Source of the DNA: Escherichia phage HMD-P10
Length of the DNA: 64,000 bases
Reading direction: 5' to 3' (one strand)
Sequence record: PV469800.1
In this document: in pieces, positions 34,790 to 41,030 of the stretch
How positions within the stretch are numbered: position 1 is the stretch's first letter
How the letters are laid out: each line of letters opens with the position of its first letter
Notes under the pieces: model-generated
The model's input: the letters and a program-made list of their open reading frames with translations, nothing else
What the model was told of the DNA's origin: nothing
Database searches by the model: none
Made by a program: the position numbers and the translations under genes

Positions 34790-34850
34790 TTGCATCAACA
34801 GGGGGGCGATGACCTCCCAACTAACTAACCTTAAACTAGGAGATTCAAAA

Positions 34851-35231
34851 ATGGCTTATCGTGCACCTAAATTCATCAACAAAGACAACTTTCGCAACGT
34901 ACTGGAGAAGGCACTTGATGAAAAATTTAACGGTAAATTGATTGTTGTTCACGCATTCAATTTCAAGTATGATATTAACGGGAATAAAATCAACCATTAC
35001 ACGGCAACCATGTTAGATGGTACACTATCAAGTGAAAAAGCCGTACTGAATGCACTTGCTGGACGTGGTAAAAACCTGATAAAATGCGATAAGAGACGTT
35101 ATCAGGGCGGCGCATATGGTTACGATGATGCTGTTTACCATCTTGAAAATATGGGATATTCAGTGGAAAAAGCTGGAGTGTCTCAAATAATCGGCAGTGA
35201 CGGCTATGTGACAATTTTCAAAATTAACTGA
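34851..35231 (+). CDS. hypothetical protein (array gene 1)
   Basis: ATG after conserved leader TAAACTAGGAGATTCAAAA; ORF-track upstream start lies inside the 5'UTR hairpin. Confidence 0.5.
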   Translation: MAYRAPKFINKDNFRNVLEKALDEKFNGKLIVVHAFNFKYDINGNKINHYTATMLDGTLSSEKAVLNALAGRGKNLIKCDKRRYQGGAYGYDDAVYHLENMGYSVEKAGVSQIIGSDGYVTIFKIN

Positions 35232-35239
35232 TAAAGTAC

Positions 35240-35319
35240 TTTACAAGGGGCTTATAGTTCGATAAAGTAAGCCCCAGATAAAGAGCTTTATCACTCAATC
35301 CTAAATTGGAGATTCTAAA
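35240..35319 (+). promoter_or_regulatory. type-B cassette: promoter TTTACA-17-TAAAGT with hairpin GGGGCTTA/TAAGCCCC and conserved RBS leader
   Basis: near-identical copy at 37475-37558; variants at 35615-35705, 36219-36305, 38270-38362. Confidence 0.45.
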
Positions 35320-35613
35320 ATGGCTATTATCAAAAACGTTGTAGTTCCTGCAAAAACTCGTGATGACGCTCGCATCATGGCGAAAAAGTTAGGTGGGAAA
35401 GTGATTGACAACGGAAAACAATCTGCTGTAAGATGGGGCGTGAAGACTGATAAACAGTTGAAGTTAAAAAATTCACCAATAAACCTTTTTACATGTGTAA
35501 ACACTATCGGGAAGACAAATGTATACACGAAAAAGGCATATATCAGACGCGTAGCCATGACATCACCTATTCGCACAATGAGAAGTCATGCAAAGCTGAA
35601 AATTAATCGTTAA
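35320..35613 (+). CDS. hypothetical basic protein (array gene 2)
   Basis: 97 aa; conserved leader. Confidence 0.45.
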   Translation: MAIIKNVVVPAKTRDDARIMAKKLGGKVIDNGKQSAVRWGVKTDKQLKLKNSPINLFTCVNTIGKTNVYTKKAYIRRVAMTSPIRTMRSHAKLKINR

Positions 35614-35705
35614 AGTACTTTACAAGGGGCTTAAAAGCTGATATCTTAAGCCCCAGATAAAGAGCTTTACCACTAAATCAAGTCCTTAAACTAGGAGATT
35701 CAAAA

Positions 35706-36218
35706 ATGAAAACTGTAGACGCTACCTTTGAAGTTGTAAAAGAAAAATTCACCATTGTTTACGAAGCTGTTAATTGCTACGAAGCAAGTCATAATCTTGA
35801 TAATTGGGAGTTTACAGATGACCATCAAGGCGGCGTGGCTATTAAAAATCCCAACTGTCAGCGTAATGGATTTAAATATGCAATCCCTTTACATTACAGC
35901 CTTAAACAGCTTTCAAGTGACTATGCAAAACAAGGCCGGGAAAATCCATCAAAAGAGGCTTACATCAGCTTACAGAAAGAACTAGAAAGAGATTTGGATG
36001 CTTCAGAGTATAACATTGCCGCTAAAGTTGTGGATGCCAACGGTAAAACGATTTTAGACAGTTTTTATATTGGTTATGCTTTCGATTGGTGCTACAGTGA
36101 CGGCGATGATTTAGATGACAGGCTAAAAGAGGAAGTGAACAACGCAGACGCAGAATCTGAAGTATTAGAACGCTTGGAAGCATTAAAAGATTCAGTGATG
36201 AATATCTTTAAGAACTAA
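35706..36218 (+). CDS. hypothetical acidic protein (array gene 3)
   Basis: 170 aa; conserved leader. Confidence 0.45.
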   Translation: MKTVDATFEVVKEKFTIVYEAVNCYEASHNLDNWEFTDDHQGGVAIKNPNCQRNGFKYAIPLHYSLKQLSSDYAKQGRENPSKEAYISLQKELERDLDASEYNIAAKVVDANGKTILDSFYIGYAFDWCYSDGDDLDDRLKEEVNNADAESEVLERLEALKDSVMNIFKN

Positions 36219-36305
36219 ATAGATTTCTTTACACGGGGTTATCAAGCTGATAAGATAGCCCCAGATAAAGAGATTTATCAACTGTCCTAAACTGGAGATT
36301 CAAAA

Positions 36306-36602
36306 ATGAAACTATCAAATAAAGTCCGTGAAAATCTAAGCAAGTTGCTTAATAAAATTGATTTCATTGAAACATCAAGGAATAGTCATGATGTTATGGA
36401 ATGGTTACACGGAAAAATCAAAGGCCGTCGTGTAGTGATTTGCTTATGGAATAGTTGCAGGGAATATAAAAAACCTGTATTACAAGTCAATATCTATGAT
36501 GATACTTTCAAAAGCCCTGTAAAGTCTAAAAGCGATTTATTAGAATCTTATGAGATAACTGTAAATGGCAAGGTATCACGTAAAGAGGAAGCACCATGTT
36601 AA
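36306..36602 (+). CDS. hypothetical protein (array gene 4)
   Basis: 98 aa; conserved leader. Confidence 0.45.
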   Translation: MKLSNKVRENLSKLLNKIDFIETSRNSHDVMEWLHGKIKGRRVVICLWNSCREYKKPVLQVNIYDDTFKSPVKSKSDLLESYEITVNGKVSRKEEAPC

Positions 36603-36928
36603 TGATGGGTATCACTGCAATCATTGCCATTATAGCACTTTACAAGGCTTATAGCGCATATAATTTGGCAAGTAAGGCAATCACGCAGCAGGTCAATAAT
36701 AACCTTGTAATGAGCTTTCTGGAGCGCTTAAGCGATGAACAAATAAAACGGTTAGAAATGAGCTTCAGATTTCAATCAAAAACTTATCAAATCAGCGACA
36801 TTTTCAAAGATGATTTTCAGCTTGTCGATGATTATAACTCTCTGATAAATGCTTTAAATATCAGTGATTTAAAAGATTATCATGCTGTAATAGTTCAAGA
36901 ATTGAGCAAACGAAAAAATTCCTCTTGA
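36596..36928 (+). CDS. small membrane protein (array gene 5)
   Basis: N-terminal TM helix MLMMGITAIIAIIALY; overlaps previous stop. Confidence 0.4.
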   Translation: MLMMGITAIIAIIALYKAYSAYNLASKAITQQVNNNLVMSFLERLSDEQIKRLEMSFRFQSKTYQISDIFKDDFQLVDDYNSLINALNISDLKDYHAVIVQELSKRKNSS

Positions 36929-37018
36929 TTTTGGTTTTTAAAACAAGTAAATTACTAATCAACGGGGAGGGAATGACCTTCCCCACTAAGTAAAATCCTT
37001 AAACTAGGAGATTCAAAA
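36925..37018 (+). promoter_or_regulatory. type-A cassette: promoter TTGATT-17-TAAATT, 5'UTR hairpin GGGGAGGG-AATGA-CCTTCCCC, conserved RBS leader
   Basis: copies at 37973-38066, 39765-39855, 40390-40452, 40717-40781; partial at 34790-34850 and 39238-39293. Confidence 0.45.
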
Positions 37019-39205: not shown

Positions 39206-39293
39206 ACAAGCCTGATAAAAGTCTGTAAATTGTCAATCAACGGGAGGGATGACCTCCCAACTAAACAAAGTCCTTAAACTAGGAGATTCAAAA

Positions 39294-39635
39294 ATGGCTT
39301 ATGTAACCGTAATTACCAATAAAGAAGATTCATCTTGGTCAACTCAAGTAAGTGACAAGATGTCACCTATGCAGTGCCTAAAATACTTTGAGCAATGGAA
39401 CAAAGGTGAGGAAACAAGCCCCTTTCAAGTAATGCAGATTATCCATACAGACAACGAAGGGAATAAAACTGTTTTGAATAGTGAGTACTATGCAACCAGA
39501 TTCGAAACGAGAAGTAAAGCAATGAAGCTCTTACGTGAATCCGGTTATTCTCATATTGCCGCGCTAATCTGGGATGACCTCCTAAAAAGTCAGCGTATCA
39601 GTTATGTAAAACCTGAAAAAATATTCATCAGTTAA
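39294..39635 (+). CDS. hypothetical protein (array gene 12)
   Basis: ATG after conserved leader; ORF-track start lies inside the hairpin. Confidence 0.45.
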   Translation: MAYVTVITNKEDSSWSTQVSDKMSPMQCLKYFEQWNKGEETSPFQVMQIIHTDNEGNKTVLNSEYYATRFETRSKAMKLLRESGYSHIAALIWDDLLKSQRISYVKPEKIFIS

Positions 39636-39667
39636 TCAACAACTTACAAAAAACTTTTAAAAAAGTG

Positions 39668-39696
39668 TTGACAATGCCCCTTGACATTGGTAACTT
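39668..39696 (+). promoter_or_regulatory. sigma70-like promoter (TTGACA-17-TAACTT)
   Basis: tandem TTGACA boxes in intergenic gap. Confidence 0.35.
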
Positions 39697-39855
39697 TGTT
39701 CGAGGGGGTTTATCTAAAAGGGATTAACTTAAAAGATTCTTTATAGATAAACTTAAAAAATTGCTTGCAATCAGATATCAAAACAAGTAAATTACTAATC
39801 AACGGGAGGGATAACCTCCCCACTAAGTAAAGTCCTTAAACTAGGAGATTCAAAA

Positions 39856-40386
39856 ATGAACAAATTTCAAGCTATCAATTACATCCGCTCAAATAGTGTT
39901 ATGTCAAAGCCTGTTAAAGACACCTATGAATTTCGTTGCAATGGCGTACACTTTGCAACCATCACCAAATCAGAAAACGGGGCTTATTACGTTCATCGCC
40001 GTAATGTTGCAACCGTTGTAGTCTCTCACTTTATGCAAGCTGTCGCGGAACTTCTCCCGATGTTTTTAGGGCTTTACTTAGATGAGTGTAAGCACATTCA
40101 TAACCATGTTAAAAGCCTTTTAAACGGTTATAAAATGGCTTATGAGCGTTCTATCAAGTCCTTAAACAAGTTTTACAACGCACCTGAAAACACCGTATCA
40201 ATGGCATACGCTGTAAAGGGTGAGGCGGTGAGTCTCTTCGAAGTGGAAGAAATCGAGCTTTATGACCATCGCCCCAATGGTTACGCTAAAACTCTCGGTG
40301 AAGGTTTAACGTTTAACATCAAGAACTTAGAAAAAACTTTAAAAGATATTGAAAAAGATATTGACGAGACAATCAAAAATCTGTAA
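39856..40386 (+). CDS. hypothetical protein (array gene 13)
   Basis: 176 aa; type-A cassette upstream. Confidence 0.45.
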   Translation: MNKFQAINYIRSNSVMSKPVKDTYEFRCNGVHFATITKSENGAYYVHRRNVATVVVSHFMQAVAELLPMFLGLYLDECKHIHNHVKSLLNGYKMAYERSIKSLNKFYNAPENTVSMAYAVKGEAVSLFEVEEIELYDHRPNGYAKTLGEGLTFNIKNLEKTLKDIEKDIDETIKNL

Positions 40387-40452
40387 ATTGTCAATCAACG
40401 GGGAGGGAATGACCTTCCCCACTAAGTAAAGTCCTAAACTGGAGTTATCAAG

Positions 40453-40716
40453 ATGGAAAACGTCGAACTGACCACACTTTTACAAATTGCAACCGACAAA
40501 GAGGATGTAGCATTATTCCACCGTATCGAAAGTGATTTGTTCAATGGTGAAATCATTAAAGAATCTTACGAAGTGGTCGGATTCAAAGATGGTAAATCAT
40601 TTGGATTCTTTGACCTCGACAAAGGCAACGCTATTACAAAGTATGATGTTTTATCTTGTGAGATTCTGACAAAATACAACGAAAAAAGACTTGCAACATA
40701 CGCCAACATGCAGTAA
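40453..40716 (+). CDS. hypothetical protein (array gene 14)
   Basis: 87 aa; type-A hairpin upstream, divergent RBS. Confidence 0.4.
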   Translation: MENVELTTLLQIATDKEDVALFHRIESDLFNGEIIKESYEVVGFKDGKSFGFFDLDKGNAITKYDVLSCEILTKYNEKRLATYANMQ

Positions 40717-40781
40717 ATTACTAATCAACGGGAGGGATAACCTCCCCACTAAGTAAAGTCCTTAAACTAGGAGATTCTAAA

Positions 40782-41030
40782 ATGGCAACTATCCGCGCAA
40801 TTGTAAATTCTTATGGCTGCTACACTCTGGACGTTAAATTTGATATAGGTGGGACCGATGAGTGTTTCGAACTGGTGAAAACAGTCATTAAACAAGTTAT
40901 CCCAGACTATAACCCTACTGATGACTTCTGGAAAGATGCAGTAAAAGAGGCGTTGAACGATGAATATCATTACCATTATTGGGGTGATTTGATTGTCTCC
41001 CTGTACTACAATAAACAAGGTTGCAACTAA
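40782..41030 (+). CDS. hypothetical protein (array gene 15)
   Basis: 82 aa; type-A cassette upstream. Confidence 0.45.
   Translation: MATIRAIVNSYGCYTLDVKFDIGGTDECFELVKTVIKQVIPDYNPTDDFWKDAVKEALNDEYHYHYWGDLIVSLYYNKQGCN

What the first reader, a model, noticed from the sequence alone, without database searches (positions are those of the whole stretch)
34832..40784. Invariant 22-nt translation-initiation leader shared by at least ten genes
TAAACTAGGAGATTCAAAAATG (variants AAATTGGAGATTCTAAAATG and AGGAGATTCGAAAATG) is reused upstream of genes at 34851, 35320, 35706, 36306, 37019, 37201, 37559, 38067, 38363, 39294, 39856 and 40782, always about 20 nt after a stable hairpin. Identical leaders imply co-regulated translation or a common RNA-binding regulator or processing site. 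They also make the ORF-track starts misleading: several listed ORFs begin inside the hairpin.
Basis: seen in the sequence. Interest (0 to 1): 0.5.

Follow-up and report, generated by a model that had tools for sequence, protein, structure and literature searches.

The report
Repeated promoter–hairpin–ribosome-site cassettes in phage
The shared 22-base leader is real, but it is only the tail end of about 13 repeated promoter, hairpin and ribosome-binding-site cassettes that drive a block of small early genes in a Felix O1-like phage and mark where those genes are gained, lost and swapped between related phages; a related phage's genome paper had already noted the repeat.

Summary
AGGAGATTCAAAAATG (0-2 mismatches) precedes 12 genes between 34838 and 40784, against about 1.6 matches expected by chance, and a degenerate 13th copy precedes the gene at 40453. 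The window is a Felixounavirus.

The leader is the 3' end of 65-113-nt intergenic cassettes of two types:
- **Type A:** a sigma-70-like promoter, then a G/C hairpin about 3 nt after the predicted transcription start, then the leader.
- **Type B:** a 60-nt two-part hairpin with the -35 in its 5' arm and the -10 in its loop, then the leader.

The cassettes occur only in this 6.6-kb, terminator-bounded array of 15 small genes of unknown function.

In 11 related phages, genes come and go as gene-plus-cassette units, and 12 of 17 synteny breakpoints fall inside cassettes. When a gene is missing, the next gene inherits the upstream cassette, which places the crossover in the shared leader.

The same architecture, with genus-specific sequences, occurs in Mooglevirus and in Erwinia phage phiEa21-4.

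The closest known analogues are the T4-type PeSL cassettes and the SAS/ESAS motifs of cluster K mycobacteriophages. The Mordin genome paper already reported the repeat.

A dedicated RNA-binding regulator is neither supported nor excluded. Interest is modest.

The parts
34361..34402 (+). Intrinsic terminator at the upstream edge of the array. It equals terminator t13 of Felix O1.
   Evidence: 17-pair stem followed by TTTTCATTT. The same sequence is listed as t13 in PMC3185647.
34761..34853 (+). Cassette 1 (type A variant, first promoter). -35 TTGACT 34761-34766; -10 TAATAT 34784-34789, with an AT-rich tract upstream; hairpin 34801-34818; leader 34829-34853; ATG 34851.
   Evidence: hairpin -10.7 kcal/mol; leader.
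35229..35322 (+). Cassette 2 (type B). Two-part hairpin 35229-35293; -35 TTTACA 35240-35245 in the 5' outer arm; -10 TAAAGT 35263-35268 in the apical loop; short-form leader 35300-35322; ATG 35320.
   Evidence: and (-21.6 kcal/mol, z = -5.05).
35609..35708 (+). Cassette 3 (type B). Hairpin 35609-35671; -35 TTTACA 35619-35624; extended -10 TGaTATCTT ending at 35647; leader 35684-35708; ATG 35706.
   Evidence: and (z = -2.66).
36219..36308 (+). Cassette 4 (type B variant). Hairpin 36219-36278; -35 TTTACA 36228-36233; -10 TAAGAT 36251-36256; short-form leader 36286-36308; ATG 36306.
   Evidence: and (-21.6 kcal/mol, z = -4.49).
36925..37021 (+). Cassette 5 (type A). -35 TTGATT 36925-36930, which contains the stop codon of the upstream gene; -10 TAAATT 36948-36953; hairpin 36964-36984; leader 36997-37021; ATG 37019.
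   Evidence: -15.2 kcal/mol; UTR z = -2.76.
37179..37203 (+). Leader-only copy with no promoter and no hairpin, lying in a 23-nt intergenic region. ATG 37201. It is the downstream of the two leader repeats that flank the 52-aa gene 37019-37177; that gene is absent from several relatives.
37468..37561 (+). Cassette 7 (type B, near-identical to cassette 2). -35 at 37479-37484; -10 at 37502-37507; leader 37539-37561; ATG 37559.
37973..38069 (+). Cassette 8 (type A, 98% identical to cassette 5 over 108 nt). -35 at 37973-37978; -10 at 37996-38001; hairpin 38012-38032; leader 38045-38069; ATG 38067.
   Evidence: (family D4).
38265..38365 (+). Cassette 9 (type B, 96% identical to cassette 3 over 113 nt). 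-35 at 38276-38281; -10 at 38299-38304; leader 38341-38365; ATG 38363.
   Evidence: (family D2).
39203..39296 (+). Cassette 10 (type A). -35 TAGACA 39203-39208, which contains the upstream stop codon; -10 TAAATT 39226-39231; hairpin 39242-39258; leader 39272-39296; ATG 39294.
39765..39858 (+). Cassette 11 (type A). -35 TTGCAA 39765-39770; -10 TAAATT 39788-39793; hairpin 39804-39820; leader 39834-39858; ATG 39856.
40361..40455 (+). Cassette 12 (type A with a degenerate leader). -35 TTGACG 40361-40366, inside the upstream gene; -10 TAAATT 40384-40389, which contains that gene's stop codon; hairpin 40400-40420; leader CCTAAACTGGAGTTATCAAGATG 40433-40455; ATG 40453.
40691..40784 (+). Cassette 13 (type A). 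-35 TTGCAA 40691-40696; -10 TAAATT 40714-40719, which contains the upstream stop codon; hairpin 40730-40746; leader 40760-40784; ATG 40782.
41069..41086 (+). Intrinsic terminator that closes the array. It corresponds in position to Felix O1 t23.
   Evidence: AGCCCCTTAAATGGGGCT followed by TTTTTT. Table 2 of PMC3185647.

Best explanation
The 22-nt leader is the common 3' module of a family of compact, self-contained expression cassettes. These sit in front of almost every gene of a 6.6-kb early-gene array of a Felix O1-like phage.

**What each cassette supplies**
- A host sigma-70-type promoter.
- A G/C-rich hairpin.
- An A/U-rich linker.
- A uniform strong ribosome-binding site: SD AGGAG or GGAG, an 8-nt A-rich spacer, ATG, and usually GCU or AAA as the second codon.

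**The two types**
- In type A the hairpin lies about 3 nt after the predicted transcription start. I infer that it acts as a 5'-terminal stabiliser of the mRNA.
- In type B the promoter is buried in a roughly 60-nt two-part hairpin that can form only in RNA read through from upstream, or in DNA. I infer that it marks or protects the 3' side of upstream messages, or is a processing site.

**Why the cassettes matter for genome evolution**
All cassettes end in the same roughly 25-40 nt, so they also serve as portable homology. Recombination between leaders deletes, inserts and swaps gene-plus-cassette units, and it keeps the copies within a genome alike.

**Shown versus inferred**
- Shown: the repeat anatomy, the consensus promoter elements, the conserved hairpins, the confinement to one array, and breakpoints that coincide with cassettes.
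- Inferred: promoter activity, transcription start positions, mRNA stabilisation, high translation, and the mechanism of recombination.
For: **Anatomy.** Copies share 73-113 nt, not 22. There are two cassette families plus one leader-only copy.

**Promoters.**
- All 12 full cassettes carry a -35/-10 pair at exactly 17-nt spacing.
- In type A the -35 and spacer are non-homologous between cassettes and often lie inside the upstream gene. Even so, six independent contexts match TTGACA at 4-5 of 6 positions at the fixed site (joint P about 1e-8).
- Nine different spacers appear across relatives.
- In type B, TTTACA is invariant, and the T-A...T of the -10 is kept within an otherwise variable loop.

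**Hairpins.**
- Type A hairpins fold at -10.7 to -15.2 kcal/mol just downstream of the predicted start.
- Among 178 copies there are 69 distinct variants. Of these, 59 keep at least 5 base pairs, using about 25 arm combinations. Some are compensatory, such as GGGAGG:CCTCCC versus GGGAAG:CTTCCC and GGGAGGT:ACCTCCC versus GGGAGGC:GCCTCCC.
- The type B hairpin has z = -5.05, -2.66 and -4.49. RNAalifold recovers it, with one GC-to-UA compensatory pair. In phiEa21-4 the inner stem GGGG:CCCC becomes GGTG:CACC.

**Specificity.**
- The leader occurs only in this array of the window. In a complete 87.7-kb relative genome all 10 copies lie between 81.1 and 86.3 kb.
- Ribosome-binding sites elsewhere in the window are heterogeneous.
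- Only two intrinsic terminators were called, one at each edge of the array.

**Early expression.** By RT-PCR, Felix O1 ORFs 16, 20, 21 and 22 of the homologous array peak at 5 min (PMC3185647).

**Recombination.**
- 12 of 17 distinct synteny breakpoints against 6 relatives lie in cassettes, which make up 19-21% of the array (P = 1.7e-5).
- In the gene map of 11 phages, a gene that loses its upstream neighbour inherits that neighbour's cassette. Family 8 switches between leader-only and A, family 11 between B and A, family 2 between A and B, and family 29 between B and A. The only sequence A and B share is the leader region.
- E9 carries a tandem type B cassette with no gene between the copies.
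- The array is far more mosaic than its flank. Only 9 of 258 records cover at least 80% of it in one place, against 170 of 276 for the flank.

**Concerted evolution.** Leaders are uniform within a genome and differ between genera.
Against: - No transcription start, RNA 3' end, half-life or translation data exist for any Felix O1-like phage in the searchable literature. Promoter activity and the stabiliser role therefore rest on consensus matches and position alone.
- The simple promoter scan has a high background: 44 hits against 28.6 expected.
- Type B transcripts that start at the predicted site have only a weak 5' hairpin or none (0 to -3.7 kcal/mol). The '5' stabiliser' idea therefore does not cover both types.
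- Between genera the cassettes are no better conserved than the coding DNA: 52-81% against 54-76% identity.
- The conserved positions flanking the SD (CCTTA... and ...TTCAAAA) go beyond what pairing with 16S rRNA explains.
- Breakpoints inside repeats are partly expected for any alignment that meets repeated DNA.
Confidence: 0.7

Rival explanations
1. The leader, with or without the hairpin, is an operator for a phage-encoded RNA-binding protein or nuclease. That factor would switch translation of all the array genes off (or on) together, in the manner of T4 RegA or RegB.
For: - Conservation extends beyond the SD core. CCTTA upstream and (A/T)TC(A/T)AAA downstream are kept in three genera.
- CCU(U) can pair with (A)GG of the SD across a constant UAAAYU loop.
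- The long and short leader forms differ by the paired loss of a U and an A. No intermediates occur among 307 leaders: 103 and 204.
- Genus-specific uniformity of the leaders is what co-evolution with a trans-acting factor would produce.
Against: - The small hairpin is weak and no better than shuffled sequence: -3.6 and -2.7 kcal/mol, z = -0.9 and -0.5.
- The paired indel is a single historical event at two sites 6 nt apart, so tight linkage is expected without any selection.
- Both sides of the pairing are otherwise invariant, so there is no real covariation.
- No RegA- or RegB-like product is annotated in a relative, although this check was at annotation level only.
- Concerted evolution by recombination explains the uniformity, and independent evidence supports it.
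Confidence: 0.12
2. The hairpins are RNA processing or 3'-end-protecting elements. The array is read as long transcripts, and RNase III or RNase E cuts at or next to the hairpins, as in the T7 early region. This would yield monocistronic mRNAs with uniform leaders. The promoter-like hexamers would be secondary or non-functional.
For: - The type B element is a hairpin of about 19-20 bp in two parts with a 3x3 internal loop. It forms only in read-through RNA (-21 to -27 kcal/mol).
- From my own knowledge, that size and shape resemble T7 RNase III sites.
- No cassette hairpin is followed by a U-tract, so read-through is expected.
- An AU-rich single-stranded stretch (ACUAAGUAAA) follows each type A hairpin. 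From my own knowledge, that is the kind of context RNase E prefers.
Against: - The -35 and -10 elements are kept at 17-nt spacing in non-homologous contexts. The TA...T is kept in a variable loop. A pure processing site would not require either.
- Type A stems of 6-8 bp are too short for RNase III (own knowledge).
- No Rfam family matches.
- This model is compatible with the main explanation rather than exclusive of it.
Confidence: 0.2
3. The type B inverted repeats act in DNA. Two 12-bp palindromes (TAAAGTACTTTA over the -35, and TAAAGAGCTTTA at about +5 to +16) would be operators for a dimeric repressor that shuts the early promoters off. Operators on DNA are the reading proposed for the ESAS repeats of cluster K mycobacteriophages.
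For: - TAAAGTACTTTA is a perfect palindrome in four window cassettes, and TAAAGAGCTTTA is palindromic at 10 of 12 positions.
- In phiEa21-4 both flanks read TAAAGAGCTTTA.
- A small protein annotated as 'transcriptional regulator' is present in a relative.
- The right arm CCCCAGATAAAGAG is invariant in 32 of 32 sequences.
Against: - In the variant cassettes (36219 and its orthologues) the left element AGATTTCTTTA is not a palindrome. It is, however, complementary to its own right arm TAAAGAGATTT. This GC-to-UA change occurs in 6 sequences and favours arm-to-arm pairing.
- Type A cassettes have no such palindromes, yet they share the leader and the array.
Confidence: 0.12
4. The repeats have no function of their own. 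They would be recent duplications, spread and homogenised by gene conversion, that merely happen to contain an ordinary ribosome-binding site.
For: - Copies are near-identical within a genome.
- Conservation between genera is no higher than in coding DNA.
- The copies evolve in concert.
Against: - The same architecture (promoter-like hexamers, a G/C hairpin, a CCTTA..AGGA leader) persists at the same locus in three genera whose sequences have diverged.
- Hairpin stems change by compensatory substitutions.
- Promoter hexamers are maintained in unrelated flanking sequence.
Confidence: 0.05

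Closest known systems
The 26-bp repeat of Citrobacter phage Mordin (Guan et al. 2015, PMC4611695) and the 57-bp and 39-bp direct repeats of Felix O1 (Whichard et al. 2010, PMC3185647)
   Same: These are the same elements by descent. Mordin's CCAACAATCCTAAACTGGAGAATCTA is the short-form leader upstream of 8 genes. Mordin's cassettes sit before orthologous genes. Felix O1's 57-bp repeat is the type B hairpin and its 39-bp repeat is a type A promoter.
   Different: Those papers only listed the repeats. Mordin's was called 'reminiscent of SASs, role unknown'. 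They described no promoters, no hairpin structure, no cassette families and no link to gene gain and loss.
PeSL (promoter-early stem-loop) cassettes of T4-type phages (Arbiol et al. 2010, PMC2839356; Comeau et al. 2014, PMC4122927)
   Same: - Both are short intergenic composites: an AT-rich tract, a sigma-70-like early promoter at 17-nt spacing, a GGGG...CCCC stem-loop, then SD and ATG.
- Both are concentrated in a hyperplastic region of small genes of unknown function.
- Both sit at indel and replacement junctions between close relatives.
- Degraded or extra copies are seen in both.
   Different: - This is a different phage lineage, and there is no sequence homology.
- The stem-loop lies downstream of the promoter (type A) or around it (type B), not upstream.
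- No U-tract follows, so a terminator role is not predicted.
- The most uniform shared part here is the RBS leader.
- Mini-circles were not tested.
Start-associated sequences (SAS) and extended SAS of cluster K mycobacteriophages (Pope et al. 2011, PMC3203893; PMC11373665)
   Same: - Both are asymmetric motifs that contain AGGAG, lie a few bases before the start codons of 11-19 genes, and are conserved beyond what pairing with 16S rRNA needs.
- Both occur in one orientation, in the non-structural early arm, and before genes with large intergenic gaps.
- In both, about half the copies have an upstream inverted repeat that holds a putative promoter.
- The function of SAS/ESAS is still unknown.
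   Different: - The sequence is unrelated (GGGATAGGAGCCC), and so are the host and the phage type.
- SASs are scattered over half a genome rather than packed into one array.
- ESAS repeats were judged not to pair as RNA, whereas the hairpins here show compensatory changes.
- No recombination role was described for SASs.
The phage T7 gene 10 leader and 5'-terminal stem-loop stabilisers such as the ompA 5' UTR (own knowledge; not checked in the library)
   Same: The layout of type A transcripts is the same: a stem-loop within a few nt of the 5' end, an A/U-rich unstructured stretch, a strong SD, an 8-nt spacer and AUG, in a leader of about 55-60 nt.
   Different: These are host sigma-70 promoters, not T7 promoters. 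There is no sequence homology. The 5' ends have not been mapped here.

Membership tests
Ounavirinae leader repeat (Mordin 26-bp repeat; Felix O1 57-bp and 39-bp repeats) | Sequence homologous to CCAACAATCCTAAACTGGAGAATCTA lying directly upstream of the start codons of several small genes downstream of the phosphatase gene | tested here: met
   The short-form leader CCTAAA(C/T)TGGAGATTC(A/T)AAAATG occurs at 35300, 36286 and 37539, and the long form at 9 further sites. Mordin cassettes align to the window's cassettes before orthologous genes.
Ounavirinae leader repeat (Mordin 26-bp repeat; Felix O1 57-bp and 39-bp repeats) | The Felix O1 57-bp repeat CTTTACATGGGGCTTAAAAG...CCCCAGATAAAGAGCTTTACCACT is present | tested here: met
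   The window has five type B copies carrying AGCCCCAGATAAGAG-type cores, that is AGCCCCAGATAAAGAG with no mismatch. blastn aligns them to the Felix O1 array.
PeSL (T4-type promoter-early stem-loop) | Sigma-70-like early promoter (-35, 17 nt, -10) with an AT-rich tract upstream | tested here: met
   12 of 12 full cassettes qualify at consensus level only. Activity was not measured.
PeSL (T4-type promoter-early stem-loop) | Stem-loop placed just upstream of the promoter and acting as a transcription terminator | tested here: not met
   The stem-loop lies downstream of the promoter (type A) or around it (type B). No U-tract follows, and the terminator scan calls only the two sites at the edges of the array.
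PeSL (T4-type promoter-early stem-loop) | Ends in the SD and start codon of the downstream gene; intergenic, within a hyperplastic region of ORFans | tested here: met
   All 15 proteins lack a Pfam match and fall in PHROGs of unknown function. The array is far more mosaic than its flank.
PeSL (T4-type promoter-early stem-loop) | Located at insertion, deletion and replacement junctions between close relatives | tested here: met
   12 of 17 breakpoints lie in cassettes, P = 1.7e-5. Cassette inheritance is shown in the gene map.
PeSL (T4-type promoter-early stem-loop) | Forms excised mini-circles by recombination between neighbouring cassettes | not testable with these tools
   This needs inverse PCR on infected cells or virion DNA.
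PeSL (T4-type promoter-early stem-loop) | Occurs in T4-type phages, with sequence related to known PeSLs | tested here: not met
   The cassette matches 246 phage records, nearly all named as Escherichia, Salmonella, Shigella or Citrobacter phages or as Felixounavirus; every record I opened is Felixounavirus or Mooglevirus.
SAS/ESAS (cluster K mycobacteriophages) | Conserved asymmetric motif containing AGGAG, 3-9 nt before the start codon of more than 10 genes, conserved beyond the reach of 16S pairing, in one orientation only | tested here: met
   12-13 copies, all on the + strand, each with an 8-nt spacer and conserved flanks.
SAS/ESAS (cluster K mycobacteriophages) | The consensus GGGATAGGAGCCC, in a cluster K mycobacteriophage genome | tested here: not met
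   The leader is TAAACTAGGAGATTCAAAAATG, and the genome is a Felixounavirus.
5'-terminal stem-loop mRNA stabiliser | Stable stem-loop beginning within about 0-4 nt of the primary 5' end | tested here: inconclusive
   This holds for type A if transcription starts 7 nt after the -10 (hairpin at +3 or +4, -10.7 to -15.2 kcal/mol). For type B the hairpin is weak or absent. The 5' ends are not mapped.
Intrinsic (rho-independent) terminator | G/C-rich hairpin followed directly by a U-tract | tested here: not met
   Cassette hairpins are followed by ACTAAGTAAA or ACCACTAAAT. Only 34361-34402 and 41069-41086 qualify.
RNase III processing site (T7 early-region type) | Irregular hairpin of about 20 bp between cistrons, cleaved by RNase III | not testable with these tools
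   The type B geometry fits: 10 bp, a 3x3 internal loop, then 9 bp. Cleavage cannot be tested here. No Rfam model matches.

The most novel reading that the evidence does not exclude
The array would be a plug-in platform for early genes conserved across Ounavirinae. The invariant leader would do two jobs.

1. It would be the crossover site that lets any small gene be inserted with a ready-made promoter and RBS, like an integron cassette but working through homologous recombination.
2. It would be an operator: the CCUU:AAGG mini-hairpin with its constant loop, read by a phage factor that shuts the whole set off together.

That would give a mechanistic answer to the still-open question of what 'start-associated sequences' are for.
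Probability: 0.1. Interest if true: 0.65.

Novelty: new variant of a known kind. Interest (0 to 1): 0.35.

Why it matters
**Annotation.** The ATG after the leader, not the ATG in the hairpin loop, is the start codon. Some public records have this wrong.

**Phage biology.** The finding gives a concrete, testable map of about 12 early promoters in a phage group whose transcription programme has been called unknown since 2010.

**Genome evolution.** Promoter-hairpin-RBS cassettes of the T4 'PeSL' kind, and 'start-associated sequences' of the mycobacteriophage kind, turn up in a third, unrelated phage lineage. The same elements also mark the joints where small accessory genes are exchanged. This suggests a general, convergent way in which lytic phages keep a fast-changing set of early genes expressible. 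Such genes probably act in host takeover or against host defences.

**Engineering.** The cassettes are natural insertion points with built-in expression signals. That is useful because Felix O1-like phages are used in biocontrol and therapy.

Tried and rejected
- **Rfam.** A scan of 34300-42700 at E <= 1 gave no match.
- **IMG/VR scans with 17-mers.** These again found only unrelated single hits. One look-alike (L255/L256) is a lone RBS in an unrelated contig.
- **MAFFT plus RNAalifold on type A cassettes.** This failed to recover the main hairpin because indels scrambled the stem columns. I used per-sequence folds instead.
- **Ungapped conservation profile anchored at the ATG.** The way I selected the sequences biases it, so I did not use it.
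- **Excess conservation between genera.** I expected the cassettes to be better conserved than the coding DNA between genera. They are not. That moved me from 'strong purifying selection on the sequence' to 'conserved architecture plus concerted evolution'.
- **Antisense RNA.** A trans-encoded RNA complementary to the leader has no minus-strand copy in the window or in complete genome E9.
- **Leader TAAACT as a -10 element.** I rejected this by reading the sequence: no -35 lies at the right distance, and such a transcript would lose the SD.
- **Cassette hairpins as intrinsic terminators.** Rejected, because there are no U-tracts.
- **Transcriptome data.** Literature searches for Felix O1-like phages found none.

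Full report
**1. The observation**

The window is a Felix O1-like coliphage (Felixounavirus). The region 34500-41200 matches 258 phage records. The best is Escherichia phage KEP1, at 89% identity over the full length.

The 16-mer AGGAGATTCAAAAATG occurs 12 times with 0-2 mismatches between 34838 and 40784. Shuffles give a mean of 1.58 hits at up to 3 mismatches and never reach the 14 found at that threshold. A degenerate 13th copy precedes the gene at 40453.

The longest ORFs at 34809 and 39249 begin at an ATG in the hairpin loop. That ATG is absent from orthologous cassettes, yet two GenBank relatives are annotated from it.

Two corrections apply. The gene at 37201 has the leader but no hairpin. 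The repeated unit is 73-113 nt long, not 22.

**2. Anatomy**

The array runs from an intrinsic terminator at 34361-34402 to another at 41069-41086. These are the only two terminators called in 9.5 kb. It holds 15 co-directional genes of 52-180 codons. None has a Pfam match, and all PHROG matches are to families of unknown function.

Thirteen intergenic elements fall into two families, plus one bare leader.

*Type A* (34761, 36925, 37973, 39203, 39765, 40361, 40691):
- an A/T-rich tract;
- a -35 (TTGACT, TTGATT, TAGACA, TTGCAA or TTGACG);
- exactly 17 nt of spacer;
- a -10 (TAAATT, or TAATAT in the first cassette);
- ACTAATCAAC;
- a G-run/C-run hairpin such as GGGGAGGGAATGACCTTCCCC;
- ACTAAGTAAAGT, then the leader.

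*Type B* (35229, 35609, 36219, 37468, 38265) is a two-part hairpin of about 60 nt.
- The outer stem pairs AAAGTACTTTA with TAAAGAGCTTT.
- The inner stem pairs GGGGCTTA with TAAGCCCC.
- TTTACA lies in the 5' outer arm.
- 17 nt further on, a TAnnnT hexamer lies in the apical loop, often preceded by TGn.
- After the hairpin comes ACCACTAAAT, then the leader.

The two types share only the last 25-40 nt.

**3. Are the promoters real?**

At the level of consensus matching, yes.

For type A, the -35 and spacer are not part of the repeat. In four cassettes they lie in or across the end of the upstream coding sequence, and the stop codon sits inside the -35 or the -10. Six unrelated contexts in the window still carry 4-5 of 6 matches to TTGACA at the fixed position (joint probability about 1e-8). 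Relatives add further unrelated spacers, always 17 nt long.

For type B, TTTACA is invariant in 32 of 32 sequences. The T and A at -10 positions 1-2 and the T at position 6 are kept while the rest of the loop varies.

The generic promoter scan has a high background (44 hits against 28.6 expected). The argument therefore rests on fixed position and spacing, not on the raw hit count.

Felix O1 RT-PCR places ORFs 16, 20, 21 and 22 of the homologous array at 5 min. The Felix O1 authors stated that how transcription passes the terminators, and how it is timed, was unknown.

**4. The hairpins**

If transcription starts 7 nt after the -10, type A messages carry a hairpin of -10.7 to -15.2 kcal/mol beginning at about +3 or +4. 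The SD-to-AUG stretch stays largely unpaired, with a mean unpaired probability of 0.48-0.75.

I collected 178 type A copies from 11 GenBank phages and from Felix-like contigs in IMG/VR. They include 69 distinct hairpin segments. Of these, 59 keep at least 5 pairs, using about 25 arm combinations, some of them compensatory.

The type B hairpin is strongly non-random, with z = -5.05, -2.66 and -4.49. RNAalifold recovers it, with one compensatory pair. In Erwinia phage phiEa21-4 its inner stem has changed from GGGG:CCCC to GGTG:CACC.

The predicted type B start lies in the 3' arm. These transcripts therefore lack the big hairpin and keep at most a weak one (0 to -3.7 kcal/mol). The big hairpin can form only in read-through RNA or in DNA.

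No cassette hairpin has a U-tract. A nested set of transcripts ending at 41086 is therefore the likely outcome. This is an inference.

**5. The leader itself**

Its layout is SD AGGAG or GGAG, an 8-nt A-rich spacer and ATG. The second codon is GCU or GCA in 6 of the 13 genes and AAA in 3. Elsewhere in the window the SD core, spacing (4-11 nt) and flanks all vary.

The leader is confined to this array. In the complete 87.7-kb genome of relative E9, all 10 copies lie at 81.1-86.3 kb.

Two forms exist: CCTTAAAYTAGGAG and CCTAAAYTGGAG. They differ by the paired loss of a U and an A that could pair across a constant UAAAYU loop. None of 307 leaders is an intermediate.

The hairpin is weak and no better than shuffled sequence. 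The two sites are only 6 nt apart. I therefore treat this as a hint only.

**6. Link to gene gain and loss**

blastn of the array against six relatives gives 17 distinct internal breakpoints. Twelve lie in cassettes, which cover 19-21% of the array (P = 1.7e-5). Three more lie within 16 nt of a cassette.

A gene-family map of 11 phages shows modules that are present or absent independently: [18] [2] [3] [4] [5-6] [7] [8] [9] [10] [11-12] [13] [14] [15] [16]. When a module is missing, the next gene carries the cassette of the missing one:

| Gene family | Usual cassette | Cassette when the upstream gene is missing |
|---|---|---|
| 8 | leader only (family 7 present) | type A |
| 11 | type B | type A in SPJ41, which lacks family 10 |
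| 2 | type B (after family 18) | type A, as first gene of the array |
| 29 | type B in Mordin | type A in Sf16 and KPS64 |

Family 13 shows a different kind of switch. It has type A in Felixounavirus and type B in Mooglevirus, with no upstream gene lost.

Because A and B share only the leader region, the crossovers must lie there.

Other signs point the same way:
- E9 has two type B cassettes in tandem with no gene between them.
- Sequence identity to a given relative jumps at cassette boundaries, for example from 96% to 89.6% against E9.
- The array is much more mosaic than the 12-kb flank. Only 9 of 258 records cover at least 80% of it in one place, against 170 of 276 for the flank.
- Orthologous positions carry different leader forms in different phages, while copies within a genome are alike. 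This is concerted evolution.

**7. Breadth**

By blastn the cassette is found in 246 records, with 1-9 places each in the rows listed. Apart from one labelled Staphylococcus, they are named as Escherichia, Salmonella, Shigella, Citrobacter or Enterobacteria phages, Felixounavirus, or simply 'Phage'; the records I opened are Felixounavirus or Mooglevirus.

Erwinia phage phiEa21-4 (Kolesnikvirus) has no blastn match to the cassette. At the same locus, however, it has the same architecture with its own sequences:
- type B-like hairpins with TTTACA and AGATAAAGAGCTTT;
- other G/C hairpins;
- a genus-specific leader, CCCTTATAAAGGAATCAAAACATG.

The design is therefore old, and it is maintained while the sequence drifts.

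**8. Comparison with what is known**

The repeat has been noticed before.
- The Mordin genome announcement reported a 26-bp repeat upstream of 8 genes. It likened the repeat to the start-associated sequences of cluster K mycobacteriophages and called its role unknown.
- The Felix O1 paper listed 57-bp and 39-bp direct repeats, which are the type B hairpin and a type A promoter, without comment.

The closest functional analogues are:
- **PeSL cassettes of T4-type phages.** These combine a promoter, a GGGG...CCCC stem-loop, an SD and an ATG. They lie in hyperplastic regions and at indel junctions.
- **SAS/ESAS.** The ESAS inverted repeats are now thought to hold promoters, and the function is still unknown.

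The element here fails PeSL membership on three counts: stem-loop position, predicted terminator function and phage lineage. It fails SAS membership on sequence and lineage. It works like both.

I file it as a new variant of a known kind and a direct homologue of the Mordin and Felix O1 repeats.

**9. Verdict**

Best explanation (confidence 0.7): these are repeated early expression cassettes whose common leader doubles as a recombination joint.

The value is mostly practical, for start-codon annotation, a testable promoter map and engineering sites. There is a modest conceptual gain in linking PeSL-like and SAS-like elements in a third phage lineage.

Noticed in passing
window 34405-34581: Four direct copies of a roughly 20-nt motif, TCATTTYMRRNYTGTGCAGR, lie between the upstream terminator and the first array promoter. 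They occur nowhere else in the window (4 hits against 0.09 expected). They may be protein-binding sites upstream of the first early promoter.
   Followed up: partly
window 41100-42650: A gene-free stretch of about 1.5 kb directly after the array is packed with short repeats of 10-11-bp period. One example is TCTGTTAAGAC x 8.4; CTGTTAAG occurs 7 times between 41913 and 42306. Relatives annotate 'repeat_region' features here. An origin, a packaging or end region, or a protein-binding array are all possible.
   Followed up: partly
window 39636-39764: The 220-nt gap before the gene at 39856 holds an extra promoter-like site (TTGACA, 17 nt, TAACTT) wrapped in a CCCCTTGA...TCGAGGGG hairpin. It also holds a 9-bp inverted repeat, GTTTATCTA...TAGATAAAC. 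No gene follows. Moogleviruses have a 46-aa membrane-protein gene at this position.
   Followed up: no
window 38937-38974: The gene at 38972 does not use the shared leader. It follows a terminator-like hairpin (AGCCCCTCACAGGGGCT, then TTTT) and has its own AGGAGG SD. It always travels with the upstream gene 38363-38905 as a two-gene module.
   Followed up: partly
window 36596-36602: Genes 36306-36602 and 36596-36928 overlap in ATGTTAA (start codon before stop codon) and always occur together in relatives. They are probably translationally coupled.
   Followed up: no
L005 (phage E9) 1556-1722: Two type B cassettes lie in tandem, 77 nt apart, with no gene between them. The first is cut off inside the leader at CCTAAATT. 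This is a probable scar of a deletion or of slippage.
   Followed up: partly
L001 5923-6309 (finno_25) and L003 5794-6180 (adrianh_77): Public annotations start this gene at the ATG inside the hairpin loop, 45 nt upstream of the leader ATG. Other records, for example ZX4221_127, use the leader ATG.
   Followed up: yes
window 39244-39261 and other type A hairpins: In some copies the loop plus 3' arm reads GGATGACCTCCCAA. That matches the 3' end of E. coli 16S rRNA (GGATCACCTCCTTA, from memory) at 11 of 14 positions, so the hairpin resembles an SD:anti-SD duplex in cis. The resemblance is weaker in other variants and may be a coincidence of composition.
   Followed up: no
window 35232-35243, 35613-35624, 37474-37485, 38268-38279: TAAAGTACTTTA, which overlaps the -35 of type B cassettes and contains the upstream stop codon, is a perfect 12-bp palindrome. 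A near-palindrome, TAAAGAGCTTTA, lies about 47 nt downstream. These are possible operator sites.
   Followed up: partly
L348 (Erwinia phage phiEa21-4) 9265-16471: The homologous array has 17 genes with its own uniform leader (CCCTTATAAAGGAATCAAAAC, then ATG) and hairpin cassettes. One gene here is annotated 'immunity to superinfection'.
   Followed up: partly
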